From: Octopus vulgaris
Taxonomy: Eukaryota
Direction of reading: 5' to 3'
Assembly (NCBI GenBank): GCA_951406725.2
Contig: OX597819.1
Span: 28,396,001-28,460,000 of the forward strand
Length of the DNA: 64,000 nt
The first letter of the stretch is position 1. Each line of letters starts with the position of its first letter. Positions 4,225 through 61,286 of this stretch are shown here, piece by piece. The position numbers and the translations under genes were made by a program. Below the pieces are notes generated by a model. It had not been told where the DNA came from, did not search any database, and was given only the letters and a program-made list of their open reading frames with translations.

Positions 4225-5545
4225 CTTTGTAAAATAAACAAATAATAGTATATACTTGAATAGAATAAAATTTGTTTATAAAAAGAATTATTTTTATGAT
4301 TTCTCAAACTATAAAAAACTTGTTACATATGATTAACATGTCTTACATTATGAAAATGGTGGAATATGGAATGAATTTTTTAATACTTTTTTCAGTTTCT
4401 AATATTCTATTTTGCAATTTTGTATCCTGACCAAAGCCTTGTGAGTAGATTTGATAAATGGAAACTGAAAGGAACCCATCATATATATATTAATTATACA
4501 CCAGCATGTAAGTTATAGGTGCAGGGATGGCTGTGTGGTAAGAAGTTTACTTCTCAGCCACGTAGTTCCGAGTTCAGACCTACTGCAAGGCACCTTAGGC
4601 AAGTGTTTTCTACTATAGCTCTAGGCTGACCAAAGCCTTGCAAGTGGATTTGGTAGATGGAAACTAAAAGAAGCCCATCATATGTGTGTGTGTGTGTTTT
4701 TGTGTTTGTTCCTCACCACCTCTTGACCACCAGTATTGGTTTGTTTATGTTTGTAACTTAGCAGTTGGGAAAAATGAATCCAGTATAACAAGTACCAAGC
4801 TTAAGAAACATAAGCACTGGGGTTCATTTGTTTGATTAAATCCTTCAAGGAGGTACCCCCAGCATGGCTGTAGTCTAGACTGAAACAAGTAAACGATAAA
4901 CATTACACAGAAAACATGTAATGTCAACAGTAATCTTATGTGGTACACACAGCTTGTTGTGTGGTTTGATACCACTACCTGGGCCTAGGGTGTCTTTTGT
5001 GGGGTCCAATTTGTTGCAAGTATCTTAGCCAGGTCTCGGTTTGAGGGTTCTTTTTCCTGTCCTCCCACCAGTACTGAAGGCCCTTGTAAAGGACCATGGA
5101 CACTGCCCATCATCCTTGACTAAAAGACAGAAAGAAACCAACAACAACCGCACTAAACATGAAACTTCGATAATAAGACAAATGAAGGGTGGTGAGCTGG
5201 CAGAACCATTACCATGTCAGATGAAGTGCTTAGTGGAATTTCTTCTGACTTTACATTCTGAGCTCAATTGCCTTTCAGAGTTGATAAAACAAGTTGTGCA
5301 CTGGGGTTGATGTAATCACCTTACCCCGTCTCCTGGAATTGTTGGCCCCATGCCATAATTTGAAACCAACAAAACAAATGAAAGATCCCAATCATTAAAA
5401 AGACAGTGACAACAGAATAATTTAAACAATGGGATATTGCTGCTATATAATAGCTTATCTAATTAATTTTCCAGCTAATGACTATGTATTGGAGTGTGCA
5501 CTAGTGTTTAAAAAAATTATTAAACATTTATTTTCAGGATATACC

Positions 5546-28294: not shown

Positions 28295-31225
28295 CTGTGT
28301 TTGTCCCCCCCCCCAACATCGCTTGGCAAGCGATGCTGGTGTGTTTACATCCCCGTAACTTAGCGGTTTGGCAAAAGAGACTGATAGAATAAGTACTAGG
28401 CTTGCAAAGAATAAGTCCTGGGGTTGATTTGGTCAACTAAAGGCGGTGCTCCAGCATGGCCACAGTCAAATGACTGAAACAAGTAAAAGATTAACTATAT
28501 AGTTAGCCTTTAACGGACCCTAACCTATGTTTCTAGTGTATTGCAAAGGTGCTAGAGACAATTTGCGATTGTATAGACTGTGTGATCTGTAAATCTGCAA
28601 GCACATAAATATCATCTTGAGTGTATGGGGAGATAAAGATATGGCTGTGAAGTTAAGATGTTTGTTTTACAAATATGTGATTCCAGTTTCAATCTGACTT
28701 TGTGGCATCATGCGGAAGTGTCTTCAATCATGGTCTTTGGTTCACTATTGTCTTGTGATTGAAGTTTGGTGGATGGAAACTGTGTGAAAGTCAATTGTGT
28801 GTGTGTATGTCTCTCTCTCTCTCTCTCTCTTAGACACACGTGGACAAAAAAGTGGTCCTACTTCTACAAACAGTTCTTTGTCACTCTCACTATTGGAAAT
28901 GCAGTAAACAGGGACTAGCCCATTGTAAAATGTATAATAAATGATGACATTTTTGACAAAATGCATGATATAAAATAAAGATAAAAGCTTCAAGTGTTGC
29001 AAAGGTTAATCTTTATGAAGTTTTGTTACATAGGAGCCATTATCTGTGCAGTGAAGATGCATGGCTCAGTAGTTGGAGTGTTGGGCTCGCAATCATGAGA
29101 TAGTGAGTTTGATTCCTGGACCAGGCTCTGTGTTGTGTTCTTGAGCAAGACACTTTATTTCATGTTGCTCCTGTTCACTCAGTTGTAGAAATGAGTTGCA
29201 ATGTCACTGGTGCCAAGCTGTATCAGTATTTACCTCTCCCTTGGATAACATCAGTGGCATGGAGAGAGGAGGCTGGTATGCATGGGTAACTGCTGGTCTT
29301 CTATAAACAATCTTACTCGGACTTGTACTTCAGAGGGTAACTTTCTAGGTACAATCCCATGACCAAAGGGGGTCTTTACCTGTGTGTGCAGTCAGTATAT
29401 TAGAAATAGCAACCAAATCCCTGTCAGATCACACCATACTGTCTTGAGAAATAAAAAGACAAAATGTACAAAGTAATTGTAGGCATACTTCTAAAATGGT
29501 GAAGGCGTGCGGCTCAGTGGTTAGAGCGTCGAGCTTACGATCATGAGGTTGTGAGCTCGAATCCCGGACTGGGCTGCATGTTGTGTTCTTGAGCAAGACG
29601 CTTTATTTCATGTTGCTCCAGTTCACTCAGCTGCAGAAATGAGTTGCGATGTCACAGGTGCCAAGCTGTATCGGCCCCTTTGCCTTTCCCTTAGATGACA
29701 TTGGTGGCATGGAGAGGGGAGGCTGGAATGCATGGGCAACTGCTGGTCTTCCATAAAACAACCTTGCCCAGATTTGTGCCTTAGAGGGTAACTCTCTTGG
29801 TGCAAGCCCATGGTCAGTGTCGTGACCGAAGGGGGTCACACACACTTCTAAAATGATAATGGTCAATATGAGAATATCTTTGATCATAAGTCTGTCAGGG
29901 CTGACTGGAACTAAACAACGGCAGAAACGATCAGATTTTGTGATGAGGCAAAATCCTGTTTTGGAATGCAGCCTTAGCTATTTTATAGATATGCTTATTT
30001 GGCAGATGTACAATTTGAAATGTCTTGAATGCCTATGTGTGGGTGTGATGACTGCACTATCTGTATCAATTTAATGTGCTTGAAAAGACATGACAAGTAA
30101 AATTGTGGCTGTCCATGCATACTGGCATGTCCTCTACATCTCTCTATCAGCCAAGAGATTCTAGTCTTGCAGGCTCATGGGGGCTGGTGCCATGTAAAAG
30201 CACCTAAACTGACTAGTGCCATAAACAGACTAGTGTCAGTTGCAAACAGTGGTGAGAGATTGAACACATACACACATAACTACCTACCTATTTATCTGCC
30301 TGCCAGTCTATGTATGTATACACACACACACACACATCACAAATGTCCAATGAATAAGAATGAAACACCGAGTAACAGTTTTGTGAAGATTTTGCAGCTT
30401 TAATAAAAGCATATTACTCTACCTTAGAGTATTATTTTTTTCCACTTTGTTTTGCATTTAAGTGCTTACTCATGTGTGTGTGTGTGTGCATATATATATC
30501 ACGTGACATGACTGACCAGTCCATCAGATGTAGTTACACATCGCTGGTCACAATGCGTTCGCATTGTTTTAGCCTTCAAATGACGCCACCCCGCTGGCTA
30601 AGCGAGCAGGCCAACAGAAGAAAGAGTGGTGAAAGAGTACAGCAGGGATCACCACCCCCTGCCGGAGCCTCGTGGAGCTTTTAGGTGTTTTTGCTCAATA
30701 AACACTCACAACACCCGGTCTGGGAATCGAAACCGCGATCCTACGACCGCGAGTCCGCTGCCCTAACCACTAGGCCATTGCGCCTCCACTATATATAATA
30801 TAAATTGGACATGGGCAATTGTTGTGTTCTTTCTTATCTTGAGGTTCACAGCCAAATGGCTAGGTGGATTCATGTGAAAAATGGCACACATGTGGAGACA
30901 GGTGCATAGATTGAAATGCAGTTTGTATTTTTTTCCTAACCCCCATACTTACCGAGAAAATTGATTAAAACTTTTTCTAATGGAACTTCCCTCTTTCTTC
31001 CGCCATTAAAACAACCAGTTGTTTAGAAGCTGTTTTCTGATGGGGTGGGGGTCAGGAAATTTTCATACAGCTGGAGGCCCCAATCGAAACAGGGGATCCG
31101 AAATGATAAGGTTGAGAAACGGTGTTATAGATTATGCCTAACCGAAAATGATCACAACCACATCACCCAAACAGACCGGGTGAAACCGGGCTTAGCTGAT
31201 GGTATATATATATATATATATACTA

Positions 31226-31283
<58 letters not shown>

Positions 31284-31288
<5 letters not shown>

Positions 31289-31514
31289 GTAAATGTAATA
31301 TGTGACAATTATTCGGTAGCAATGATAAAACTTTGAGTTTCGGATGCCGAGGTGGAAATCCACGCCACCATCTCTTCAGTTATCCAGCCATCGGGGCATT
31401 TTTCTGATGGCCAGATAAAGGAAGAGATGGCGTCGTGGATTTCCACCTTGGCATCCAAAACTCGGAGTTTTATCATGGCTACCGAATAATTGTCACATAT
31501 TACATTTACAGATA
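31284..31514. mobile_element. Fold-back element (arms of about 110 bp) next to (TA)n, carrying a hammerhead-like core
   Basis: tatctgtaaatgtaatatgtgacaattattcggtagc... / ...gctaccgaataattgtcacatattacatttacagata, with a spacer of about 9 nt. Confidence 0.85.
31324..31384 (-). ncRNA. Candidate type I hammerhead ribozyme (Penelope-like minimal stem III)
   Basis: GAUAA-CUGAAGA-[GAUG...CAUC hairpin]C-GAAA-CU-caa-AG-UU-UUAUC; stem I GAUAA/UUAUC; GUU site; one extra C before GAAA. Confidence 0.55.
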
Positions 31515-34500
31515 AATTCCTCTATTTGCATAATATCGAGGTCTCTTTCTTTCTTTTGTCATCTTACCATTTTTATCAATATATATATATATGTATATAT
31601 ACATACAATGGGCTTCCTTCGGTTTCCATTTACCAAATCCACTCACAAGGCTTTGTTGGCCAAGTGCTATAGTAGAAGACATTTGCCCAAGGTGTCTCAC
31701 AATGGGACTGGACCCAGAACCATATGGTTGGGAAGTAAACTTCTTACCACTCAACCACAACAAAATCATATATAGTTGGTGTATTCAAGAAAAATATAAA
31801 ACAATGATTCAGGAAAACGTTTGAAGTTCATTAATAGCAACAAGTATTTTAAAAATACTCTGACCTCTTTAGTCAGTGAATTTCAGATAGAATGTTTAAT
31901 AGTAATAAAATCTGTATGTAACTATTAAGTTATATATAGATGTCCATAACCATAGAACAGTACCTGTTTCACAGCACTCTAATGTGCGTTGAAGTTATAC
32001 AGGCATGTCATGAAATTGCTTGACATCAGAATGTATTGTCTATATTTCCCATTTATAGAATAAAGATTAGCATGAATTACTTACTTTGAGTTACTTTTCT
32101 CTCACATGTGATCTAGTCAACAAATTTACATTGTTTAATTTCTAAAAAAAATGTATACTCTTTACTCTTTTACTTGTTTCAGTCATTTGACTGTGGCCAT
32201 GCTGGAGCACCACCTTTAGTCGAGCAGATTGACCCCAGGACTTATTCTTTGTAAGCCTAGTACTTATCCTATCGGTCTCTTTTGCTGAACAGCTAAGTTA
32301 TGGGGACGTAAACACACCAGCATCGGTTGTCAAGTGATGTTGGGGGAACAAACAAAACACACAAACATATACACTCACATACATATATATATATATATAT
32401 ATATATGACGGACTTCTTTCAGTTTTCATCTACCAAATCCACTCAAAAGGCTTTGGTCGGCCCGAGGCTATAGTAGAAGACACTTGCCCAAGATGCCACA
32501 CAGTGGGACTGAACCCGGAACCATGTGGTTCGTAAGCAAGCTACTTCCCACACAGCCACTCCTACACCTAAATTTTGTTTATATAACCTGAGCTGCTTCT
32601 AATTCATATTTGAAAAAAATATGTATATTTATTTTTGTTTATTTTTAGTAAAACAAACTTACTGTTTTCTTTAATCCTTTAGCATATAAACTGTCCATAT
32701 CCAACCAAAATATTCTACTTGTTTTATGTTCAAACTGACCAGATCTGACCTCTCGTATCTACCCTACAATGTCATTCTAAAAATAAACAATCACATCATC
32801 AAAATTTCAAAGCTATGAGATAATGCATGGTTAATATAAAACAATTGAATAATAAAGCATTCCCTCTCTCTTCTCCGGCGAGGCACTGAGCAGCTATACG
32901 CACACATACACACACGGCAGTAACTTCCACCTACCGAATTCAATCACAAAGCTCCGGTCGGCTCGGGGCTATAGTGGAAGACACCTACCCAAAGTGCCAC
33001 GCAGTGGGACTGAACCCGAAACCATGTAGCTAGGAAGCAATTATATTTGACAAAAGTGGAGGTGCATGGCTTAGTGGTTAGGGTGTCAACATCATGATCA
33101 TAAGATTGTGGTTTCAATTCCTGGACCGGGCGACGCATTGTGTTCTTGAGCAAAACACTTCATTTCACATTGTTCCAGTCCACTCAGCTGGCAAAAATGA
33201 GTAATGCTGCGATGGACTGGTGTCCCGTCCAGCTGGGGAACACATACACCATAAAAACTGGGAAAACGGGCCCATGTGCCTGGCTAGGCTTTAAAAGGGC
33301 ACATTTATTATTATTTTATTTGACTGAATAATGTGAATGTTAAACAAGTTTAAAGGTTGGAAGGCCCTAGAAAACACTCTCATTAAAATGTGCCAGTCAG
33401 ATTAAAAGGATATCTGTTGCAGTTGATTGTCTGAGTTAAGTAGGGTTAAAATTGATATGTATATTATATTGGAAATACATACATTGTGTGGAGGCGCAAT
33501 GGCCTAGTGGTTAGGGCAGCAGACTCACGGTCGCAGGATCGCGGTTTCGATTCCCAGACCGGGCGTTGTGAGTGTTTATTGAGCGAAAACACCTAAAAGC
33601 TCCACGAGGCTCCGGCAGGGGGTGGTGATCTATCACCACTCTTTCTTCTGTTGGCCTGCTCGCTTAGCCAGTGGAGTGGCGTCATTCGAAGGCTAAAACA
33701 ATGCGAACGCATTGTGACCAGCGATGTGTAACAACATCTGATGGTCTGGTCGGTCACGGGATCACATACATTGTACATTGAGCAGGATACACAATAACAA
33801 TATTACTGAAAATTTTGTAAAAGTCGTATAACAAGACAAGTATATATTTTATAAGAGTATTTAACATTACACAGTATGTAAAAATATAAAAAATTAGCTT
33901 TTTAATTTCAGCATTGTGCTCTGGCACCCCATCACCACCAACTTTATCTCCCTTCCCGCTACCCTCTTCCACCCTCACATAATACTGGGTAACCATATTT
34001 CTCTTCTATAACAAAGCACCTGCAGTTGTCCCTCTATCATGCTTTAGCCTTCAAATCCTGGCATAAAGCTACCCCACTCTCTCAAATGCTTTCCAATTCA
34101 GTTGAGGGAGCTTTTCTCTTTTCTTTATCTCACAAGCTACATTGTTAATGTTACGAAAAATGCACCCAGTACATGCTAGAATGTGGTTGGCATTAGGAAA
34201 GGCATCTAGCCATAGAATCCATGGCATAGCTGTTATTGGGGCTTGATGCAGCTCTGTGACTTATCAGATCCTGTTAAACTTCTAAGTATGATAAATGAGC
34301 ATTTAAGGTTGATGATGGGTAATTTTAGTACTGGTTCCATGGTAATTTCTAAACTACTGTATCACTAACTTTGAAATTATTGATGCCTGTATGCTTCACT
34401 AGTTTAGTAGCAGCACTTTTAATTCCTACACTATGGACATTATTACTCAAGAGTTGTTGATAGATAAACCACCATGTCACAGTCTTCTCAGGACTTGCAA

Positions 34501-56335: not shown

Positions 56336-56550
56336 AGTAAACACATAAATGTGAAACAAGGTGGAAAAAAGAGTACTCAAATACCAGTGGTAGAGTAATA
56401 TGCTTTATTTTAAGCAGCAGAAAATTCAACAAAATCTGTTACTCTGAGTTTCTCGTTGCTGTTCATCAGACAGTTTTTCTAGCAAAAACTGTCTGATGAA
56501 CGGCAACGAGAAACTCAGAATTTTGTTGAATTTTCTGTGCTTAAAATAAA

Positions 56551-56551
<1 letters not shown>
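56336..56551. mobile_element. Fold-back element within (TA)n, carrying a hammerhead-like core
   Basis: Arms 56403-56478 and 56484-56551 around ctagc; a single-arm relative lies at about 30343-30470. Confidence 0.85.
56436..56473 (-). ncRNA. Candidate minimal type I hammerhead ribozyme
   Basis: CUGU-CUGAUGA-acaGCAAcga-GAAA-CUC-a-GAG-UA-ACAG; stem I CUGU/ACAG; palindromic stem III; GUA site. Confidence 0.6.
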
Positions 56552-56608
<57 letters not shown>

Positions 56609-60316: not shown

Positions 60317-61154
60317 GTATTCATTCACTTTATTTATTTATTTATTTATTTATTTATTTTGTGTTTAGGAAATAGCTGTGTTGTTGGTTACAAATTTACA
60401 AGAGGTCAATAAGTGATACTGCAGGCTTCTCTTCCCAGCTCAAGCCAGACAGCAGGACAGTTTTCCTGTGGCATCCCAGACAAGGTCCCTTATCTGAGAT
60501 TCTGTTTGCTGCAACACCTCCAGTAGCAACCTGGTATGTTCTGCTGCCAGCCCAGGCTTTGCTGCTCATCAGGCCAAGAGGGGAAAACTATCAAAGTATC
60601 AGATGCTCTTTGACAGATTTGTGGATGAACCTGTGGCAGTGGAAACCTTCAACGTTCTTGGTTCTCAGACTGTACCCATTACTCATTGCTATTGAGCTGG
60701 AGATGGCTATCTGCAAGTGCAAGCCCTGAGAGTTGGAGTGGCTGTTCCAGAACATCACCTTCACTGTCCTCTGGGGCACCACTTTTTCCATTTTGTCTGC
60801 TGGGACCATAAAGAAGACTGACATGTATTTTTAGTTATAGCTGTTGTATTGCTTAAAAATACAAATGGTTTCTATGTGCATAGTTGGAACGCTACCAAAA
60901 TTGATTTCATTTCAGATTATTGGGAGTGACAAAGGAATGTCTAGGCAACTGAGGTTCAACAAATACCACTAAGAGTATTTATTTTTGAAATTATCAGTCT
61001 TTCAATTTCCTCACCCATCAAGTCTATGAGAATTACTTAATAGTTTTTTAAGCGTATTATGAGGATGTTACTAACCATTTTTTCTAGTGTGTAAGCACTT
61101 ACATTTAACCTTTTTATAACCTCTATCTGAATAATACATATATATATATATATA

Positions 61155-61286
61155 TATTGTTATATTTTGGAATGGTCATTTTGCCAGTTTAGCCAATAAA
61201 AACACACGCACTATATATTTGGTATTATTTTGCTTCAGTGTTATTGGCTAAACTGGCAAAATGACCATTCCGAAATATAACAATAT
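61155..61286. repeat. Inverted repeat (fold-back), arms of about 45 bp
   Basis: atattgttatattttggaatggtcattttgccagtttagccaataa ... ttattggctaaactggcaaaatgaccattccgaaatataacaatat, adjacent to (TA)n. Confidence 0.9.

What the first reader, a model, noticed from the sequence alone, without database searches (positions are those of the whole stretch)
31284..31514. Second, sequence-distinct fold-back family with the same hammerhead architecture
Seen: arms of about 110 bp beside a long (TA)n. Minus strand 31384-31324 reads GAUAA CUGAAGA [GAUG-GUGGC-GUGG-auuu-CCAC-CUCGG-CAUC]C GAAA CUcaaAG UU UUAUC. The two-arm consensus extends stem I (UGGCC/GGCUA across a small internal loop) and gives stem III ACUC-G-GAGU, the same ACUC-N-GAGU palindrome as at 56.4 kb although the flanks and stems I/II are different. 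The plus arm core is broken (AGGAAGA; AAAA for GAAA). Inference: a shared core with different stems is what selection on ribozyme structure would leave.
Basis: partly seen in the sequence, partly recalled or inferred. Interest (0 to 1): 0.75.

Follow-up and report, generated by a model that had tools for sequence, protein, structure and literature searches.

The report
Fold-back stub of Penelope-like retrotransposon
This mirror-image repeat is two truncated, back-to-back copies of the tail end of a common jumping gene (a Hydra-clade Penelope-like retroelement) that carries a hammerhead RNA motif predicted to cut itself; it is a known kind of genomic debris, and this copy is damaged in both arms and likely inactive.

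Summary
It is not a stand-alone ribozyme family. It is the 3' pseudo-LTR of a Hydra-clade Penelope-like element (PLE). The arm follows an RT + GIY-YIG ORF in 20 of 30 endonuclease-anchored loci, and one full-length copy has direct pLTRs around the ORF. The inverted 5'-truncated arms, one-sided tail (41 of 44 pairs), (TA)n target and hammerhead with palindromic helix III are all published PLE traits. ACUC-N-GAGU is listed for other Hydra elements, and the 56.4-kb repeat is a second Hydra-type family. Stems I and II covary across subfamilies, so the source RNA was probably selected for this fold. Changes arising after insertion hit core and flank about equally. Here the plus core is broken, the minus helix III is damaged, and a read-through RNA would fold as a long duplex. 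Small new points: a lineage-wide extra pyrimidine before G12, a U4C subfamily, and a 5'-end hotspot just upstream of the ribozyme. There is no pile-up at the cut site, and cleavage is untested. The scan noted the same class elsewhere in this genome.

The parts
31203..31283 (.). (TA)n target microsatellite, left side
   Evidence: Sequence. (TA)n or a related AT-rich microsatellite flanks most of the 23 loci, and it is the preferred target of Hydra PLEs.
31284..31394 (-). Short arm: 5'-truncated inverted copy of the PLE 3' pLTR, without the tail; begins 14 nt upstream of C3
31324..31384 (-). Type I hammerhead motif: stem I 31384-31380 with 31328-31324; CUGAAGA 31379-31373; 13-position stem II 31372-31343; extra C 31342; GAAA 31341-31338; helix III 31338-31330 (damaged at 31333); predicted cut after U17 = 31329
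   Evidence: cleavage not tested
31395..31395 (.). One non-templated base at the junction of the two arms
   Evidence: Over 66 junction rows (a few are duplicates) most values run from -2 to +2 nt, mode -1; range -13 to +32.
31396..31514 (+). Long arm, shared part: 5'-truncated pLTR copy beginning 22 nt upstream of C3
31414..31474 (+). Broken hammerhead (C3>A, U4>G, G12>A); helix III ACUCGGAGU intact at 31460-31468
31515..31581 (+).
   Evidence: 41 of 44 inverted pairs have it on exactly one arm
31580..31605 (.). (TA)n target microsatellite, right side

Best explanation
The fold-back is a decayed insertion of two 5'-truncated, oppositely oriented copies of the 3' pseudo-LTR of a Hydra-clade Penelope-like retroelement in a (TA)n tract, likely made when the element's enzyme primed reverse transcription from both cut DNA ends. 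Shown: the same sequence lies downstream of an RT + GIY-YIG ORF and as direct repeats around it; the two arms end at two fixed 3' points 67 nt apart; their 5' ends and junctions vary from copy to copy; both arms of one insertion share private variants. Inferred: the endonuclease cuts (TA)n, RT starts at two internal sites of the element RNA (one per DNA end), and the two short cDNAs are end-joined in the middle. The hammerhead belongs to the source element's RNA. There it is predicted to cut after GUU, probably as a dimer through the palindromic helix III or with the help of the PLE protein. In this copy it is probably dead: the plus core is broken, the minus helix III is damaged, and the arms would pair with each other.
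For: ORF link: L086 holds inverted arm, RT C-terminus, GIY-YIG, ~0.9-kb 3'UTR, hammerhead and tail. 20 of 30 loci picked by the RT-end/endonuclease DNA alone have the arm downstream on the same strand (five of the 20 look like duplicates of one C17 segment). L117 has direct pLTRs 2,568 nt apart around the ORF, and the L116 and L117 5' copies run through the tail into the ORF. The ORF has RWK, DKT, YKDD, CxCx5C, CxxC/CxH and no Cys inside the GIY-YIG core, the Hydra criteria of PMC8557442 section 11. Atlas neighbours score 0.94-0.96, with HTH_animal in 10-69% and RVT_1 in 13-17% of members. Tail on exactly one arm in 41 of 44 pairs. Non-CpG variants shared by both arms: 59 vs 9.4 on permutation, maximum 28, over 56 pairs. 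Inverted truncated copies, one-sided tails and (TA)n targets are described in PMC8557442. Two internal RT starts that define the tail, and extension of both target strands, were shown in vitro for an anole PLE (PMC11167929). Covariation: 85.5% of cells paired, 9 of 22 pairs with two-sided changes, slid controls 31-51% paired.
Against: Pfam gives only a sub-threshold GIY-YIG hit (E=0.015) and no RT hit. The PDB search found nothing. Rfam finds no hammerhead. No tree was built for clade membership. Ten of 30 endonuclease loci lack the arm within 1.5 kb downstream. Shared arm variants could also come from gene conversion between the arms. The covariation rows are related and were mostly picked by the core pattern, so helix III and the core are not tested by them. 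No intact ORF was found, and cleavage was not tested.
Confidence: 0.92

Rival explanations
1. An independent non-autonomous fold-back element (MITE-like, or a hairpin retrozyme) that moves as a ~300-bp unit with ribozymes in both arms.
For: Many ~230-bp fold-backs exist (2,172 candidates, 40 scored). 5' ends pile up 5-36 nt upstream of C3, so many copies look alike.
Against: The centre differs in every copy, and arms start anywhere from -124 to +68; only 97 of 177 arms span the whole hammerhead. The ends are asymmetric. Longer copies continue into the ORF. The uniform look comes from querying with the fold-back itself. A read-through RNA would be a duplex. No tandem array of a short unit was seen at this locus.
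Confidence: 0.04
2. This copy has been kept by the host as an active ribozyme or regulatory hairpin.
For: The minus-strand catalytic nucleotides are intact, but so are those of 103 of 162 full-span arms (that set includes loci picked by the core pattern).
Against: Both arms carry lesions. Arm-private changes across the family fall on core and flank at the same rate. Arm-arm pairing (-174 kcal/mol) far outweighs the ribozyme fold (-20 to -27).
Confidence: 0.03
3. The hammerhead-like motif in this lineage is no longer catalytic (extra pyrimidine before G12, mismatched stem II, U4C subfamily) and is kept only as a protein-binding or priming structure. This is compatible with the PLE origin and rivals only the 'cuts itself' step.
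For: No excess of 5' ends at the cut site (6 of 162 arms; 0.0075 per nt vs 0.007-0.011 nearby). A U4C subfamily multiplied (17 of 175 arms). In the anole PLE, ribozyme mutants did not affect insertion in vitro, and no reads ended at the site.
Against: The core is kept across families with unalignable flanks. Inherited variants are rare in core + stems I/III (4 of 1,045) against stem II, the stem I extension and the 3' flank together (46 of 2,441, p=3e-4), though against the 3' flank alone p=0.08. G10.1 can pair with the last pyrimidine, which leaves a canonical core with a bulge in stem II. U4C is a known natural low-activity variant (PMC3088659).
Confidence: 0.25

Closest known systems
Hydra clade of C-terminal EN+ Penelope-like elements, incl. 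Hydra-1_Obim (Craig et al. 2021, PMC8557442)
   Same: RWK, DKT, CxCx5C, no CCHH, <3 kb unit, (TA)n target, canonical hammerhead near the 3' end. File S2 lists ACUC-N-GAGU helix III for Hydra-2_aMil, Hydra-1/2_aJap, Penelope-3_HM and Penelope-16_HM. Hydra-1_oBim also has CUGAAGA-G-AUG and a GUU site.
   Different: A separate family: 45 of 79 residues identical to Hydra-1_Obim in one RT stretch (counted by eye). It has a different helix III (Obim ACCA-A-UGGU), a longer stem II, an extra pyrimidine on the 3' side of stem II, clear pLTRs, and a 67-nt tail rather than 30-40 nt.
PLE hammerheads with palindromic helix III (Cervera and de la Pena 2014, PMC4209133)
   Same: Type I motif in pLTRs, long helix II, short helix I, palindromic helix III proposed to work as a dimer; pairs on opposite strands 100-700 bp apart already noted; one unpaired base next to stem II.
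   Different: The published extra base lies between 9 and 10.1 (5' side). Here it lies 3' of stem II, or is a bulge after the first pair.
Anole Poseidon element PAc (PMC11167929)
   Same: Tail set by two internal RT starts; both target strands extended; AT-rich target.
   Different: Another clade. There the ORF starts inside the hammerhead; here the ATG lies about 100 nt past the tail end (L117).
Animal non-LTR retrozymes (bioRxiv 10.64898/2026.07.22.740005, part 1 of 5 read)
   Same: Type I hammerhead, PLE-related.
   Different: Retrozymes are tandem non-coding units; this is an inverted stub of a coding element.

Membership tests
EN+ Penelope-like element | Single ORF with RT and C-terminal GIY-YIG endonuclease upstream of the repeat | tested here: met
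   L086, L091, L101, L117; Pfam GIY-YIG only E=0.015, no Pfam RT hit; Atlas neighbours with RVT_1/HTH_animal
EN+ Penelope-like element | Pseudo-LTRs, direct or inverted, flanking the ORF | tested here: met
   Direct in L117, inverted in L086 and L101
EN+ Penelope-like element | Tail extension at one end only | tested here: met
   41 of 44 inverted pairs; 2 with none, 1 with two
EN+ Penelope-like element | Variable 5' truncation | tested here: met
   177 arms from 119 loci start between -124 and +68
Hydra clade | RWK and DKT motifs | tested here: met
   L114, L116, L117 translations
Hydra clade | CxCx5C linker, no CCHH, CxxC and CxH around the conserved E and N | tested here: met
   Read from translations; CxH appears as CxH in L101 and L114 and as CxY in others
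Hydra clade | (TA)n target and length under 3 kb | tested here: met
   2,568-nt pLTR spacing in L117; others have a longer 3'UTR
Hydra clade | Groups with Hydra in an RT phylogeny | not tested
   Reference proteins were seen only in a paper supplement and compared by eye
Type I hammerhead ribozyme | Core C3 U4 G5 A6 N7 G8 A9, G12 A13 A14, A15.1-U16.1, H17 | tested here: met
   Family majority and window minus arm; not met in the window plus arm
Type I hammerhead ribozyme | Three helices supported by covariation | tested here: met
   Stems I and II show two-sided changes; helix III was fixed by the search pattern, so it is not independently tested
Type I hammerhead ribozyme | Stem II joins G12 directly (10.1-11.1 pair) | tested here: inconclusive
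One extra pyrimidine.
Type I hammerhead ribozyme | Self-cleavage after H17 | not testable with these tools
   No assay; no pile-up of genomic 5' ends at the site
MITE / fold-back DNA transposon | Fixed centre, symmetric terminal inverted repeats | tested here: not met
Non-LTR retrozyme | Tandem non-coding units each with a hammerhead | tested here: not met
   Inverted stub linked to an ORF

The most novel reading that the evidence does not exclude
The short arms are not random truncations but run-off copies of an RNA that starts at a pLTR promoter just upstream of the hammerhead. Each fold-back would then record, in vivo and thousands of times, two internal RT starts used at the two cut DNA ends, with the uncleaved ribozyme as template. 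The lineage would also carry an active hammerhead variant with an extra pyrimidine before G12. Basis: 66 of 95 arms that pass the ribozyme end within the next 32 nt (0.033 per nt vs 0.007-0.015 elsewhere). A cap-derived extra G was not shown.
Probability: 0.25. Interest if true: 0.5.

Novelty: new member of a known kind. Interest (0 to 1): 0.22.

Why it matters
As a locus it matters little: it is one of thousands of decayed stubs. As a family it is a large natural record of how Penelope-like elements insert, a mechanism still open in PMC8557442 and PMC11167929. The strict one-tail rule, the variants shared between arms and the absence of ends at the ribozyme cut site fit two-ended priming from uncleaved RNA. 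It also adds an untested hammerhead core variant.

Tried and rejected
Rfam scan of the window at E<=5: 92 matches, none a hammerhead. Pfam found no RT family in 5 RT-side or N-terminal pieces; PDB sequence search gave 0 hits. First loci with repeated motifs (L084, L085) were local tandem duplications, not full elements. Expression: no RNA holder listed on record. Four runs of contigs with guessed RNA status cover the family but cannot show ends or level; no conclusion drawn. Pile-up of 5' ends at the cut site: not found (one search was polluted by TA hits and redone). Cap-derived extra G: base before the arm is G in 31 of 105 hotspot arms vs 22 of 81 others, p=0.75. At one hotspot position, 13 G vs 8 A junctions among 26 hits, including one duplicate pair and one doubtful call: inconclusive. 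Conservation test: 63 of 243 rows from loci picked by exact core or exact flank patterns were dropped; one search includes them. A look-up of earlier findings by sequence returned nothing. Literature searches; none listed a paper on this family or on an extra base before G12, but these five searches are narrow. Supplements of PMC4209133 (hammerhead alignments) and of the bioRxiv preprint were not seen and may hold such a variant.

Full report
Observation. The minus strand has GAUAA, CUGAAGA at 31379-31373, a long stem II, an extra C, GAAA, helix III and a GUU site ending at 31329. The plus arm has C3>A, U4>G and G12>A. Two things were missed. The plus arm continues for 67 nt (31515-31581) before the right-hand (TA)n. 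The minus helix III carries a G>A that drops its palindromic self-duplex from -9.7 to -0.1 kcal/mol. Rfam sees no hammerhead, and the minus arm alone folds no better than shuffles. The whole fold-back is a -174 kcal/mol duplex, which would bury both motifs in a read-through RNA.

Family. The window lies in a 2.8-Gb animal genome, probably an octopus; that is an inference from genome size and the closeness to Hydra-1_Obim. A 24-nt flank word occurs 2,197 times against 0 for the reversed control. The two-part core pattern occurs 8,846 times against 3, spread over several families. In the 23 best loci, the short arm ends mostly in (TA)n or a related microsatellite, the long arm carries the tail, and the centre differs each time. 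Loci picked by the tail or by the flank word show arms starting anywhere from -124 to +68 relative to C3; 97 of 177 span the whole ribozyme. The tail is on exactly one arm in 41 of 44 inverted pairs. Junctions mostly overlap by 1-2 nt or have short inserts. This excludes a MITE.

Parent element. Walking upstream led through a ~0.9-kb 3'UTR to a GIY-YIG endonuclease and an RT. Of 30 loci chosen only by RT-end/endonuclease DNA, 20 have the arm downstream on the same strand (five appear to be one duplicated segment). L117 has direct repeats 2,568 nt apart around the ORF. In L116 and L117 the 5' repeat runs through the tail into the ORF, whose ATG lies about 100 nt further on. All ORFs seen are broken. 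Motifs RWK, DKT, YKDD, CxCx5C, CxxC/CxH and the lack of CCHH match the Hydra clade as defined in PMC8557442 section 11. One RT stretch matches Hydra-1_Obim at 45 of 79 residues by eye, so this is a related but separate family. Pfam support is weak and the PDB search was blank; the Atlas gives RT/HTH_animal neighbours. No tree was built.

The 56.4-kb family. It is also followed by a one-sided tail, and it lies downstream of a similar ORF with 47-48% RT and 34% EN identity to this family (L200, L201). The shared ACUC-N-GAGU is listed for five other Hydra elements in File S2 of PMC8557442. The shared core is thus common inheritance within a known clade.

Selection. Across 26 arms from several subfamilies, 85.5% of cells pair, and 9 of 22 pairs change on both sides (e.g. 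C-G/U-A in stem II, G-C/A-U in stem I); slid controls pair at 31-51%. The rows are related and mostly chosen by the core pattern, so this supports stems I and II only. Within the family (176 arms; 63 of 243 rows from pattern-biased loci dropped), non-CpG change in the core is 3.1%. It is 4.1% in the adjacent 3' flank (p=0.09), 5.4% in the tail and 5.8% upstream; the column-level test gives p=0.27. Splitting 44 inverted pairs by type of change helps. Arm-private changes are alike inside and outside the ribozyme (2.1% vs 2.5%). Changes shared by both arms are rare in core + stems I/III (4 of 1,045, vs 46 of 2,441 elsewhere, p=3e-4; vs flank alone p=0.08). Both arms share far more variants than permuted pairs (59 vs 9.4), as expected if both were copied from one source, though gene conversion is possible. 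The reading: selection in source elements, neutral decay in copies.

Mechanism. In vitro, an anole PLE cuts and extends both target strands and starts RT at two internal sites that bound the tail; its hammerhead cuts only with protein and is not needed for insertion (PMC11167929). Applied here (inference): the endonuclease cuts (TA)n, one cDNA starts at the tail end and the other 67 nt upstream, both stop early, and they are joined in the middle. The ribozyme is predicted to act in the source RNA, probably as a dimer through the palindrome (PMC4209133). Genomic 5' ends show no excess at the cut site, so cleaved RNA is not a visible template. They do pile up 5-36 nt upstream of C3, at three to four times the rate elsewhere; both window arms (-14, -22) start there, which is why the stub looks like a defined 110-bp family. 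A transcription start or RT stalling could cause this; a cap-type extra G was not shown.

Extra C. The extra base is a pyrimidine in nearly all 26 arms. It can sit before G12 or bulge after a G10.1-Y11.1 pair; the two registers score alike. In a more distant relative the extra base is on the 5' side (L171), the published PLE position. Section 8 of PMC3088659 discusses other insertions, not this one. Its effect needs an assay. A U4C subfamily has multiplied; U4C is a known low-activity natural variant.

What was read: PMC4209133 parts 1-2 of 4; PMC8557442 passages, outline, section 11, supplement parts 1-2 and search hits; PMC11167929 passages and section 3 part 2; PMC3088659 passages and section 8; the retrozyme preprint part 1 of 5. 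Earlier scan notes were seen after this reading was formed and describe the same class at other sites.

Verdict. Real, a new family of a known clade, and an ordinary decayed copy. Interest 0.22.

Noticed in passing
window 56337-56552: The other fold-back is a second, more homogeneous Hydra-type PLE stub with a GCAA-capped 2-3 bp stem II, a GUA site and a one-sided tail; the plus arm has a 7-nt deletion through helix III.
   Followed up: partly
window 30362-30500: Older, decayed, single-armed relative of the 56.4-kb family, 74-81% identical.
   Followed up: no
L117, L118, L114, L111, L097, L113: Subfamily with CCGAAGA (U4C) core, including the full-length copy with both pLTRs.
   Followed up: partly
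run X11, record 9, laid on L086:3553-5578: A 2,619-nt contig of a related subfamily joins the tail end back to the RT region, as a head-to-tail or circular unit would; the run's RNA status is only a guess.
   Followed up: no
window 30640-30790; copies at 33488, 49369, 18235, 50404: Dispersed repeat, 83-97% identical, whose minus strand looks like a tRNA-derived SINE head (label recalled; ARAGORN calls no tRNA).
   Followed up: no
L084:757-1368 and 4334-4945: Tandemly duplicated ORF fragment that looks Helitron-like (label recalled, not searched), beside a pLTR stub.
   Followed up: no
window 61154-61286: Another short fold-back, seen only as a sub-threshold miRNA-model hit.
   Followed up: no
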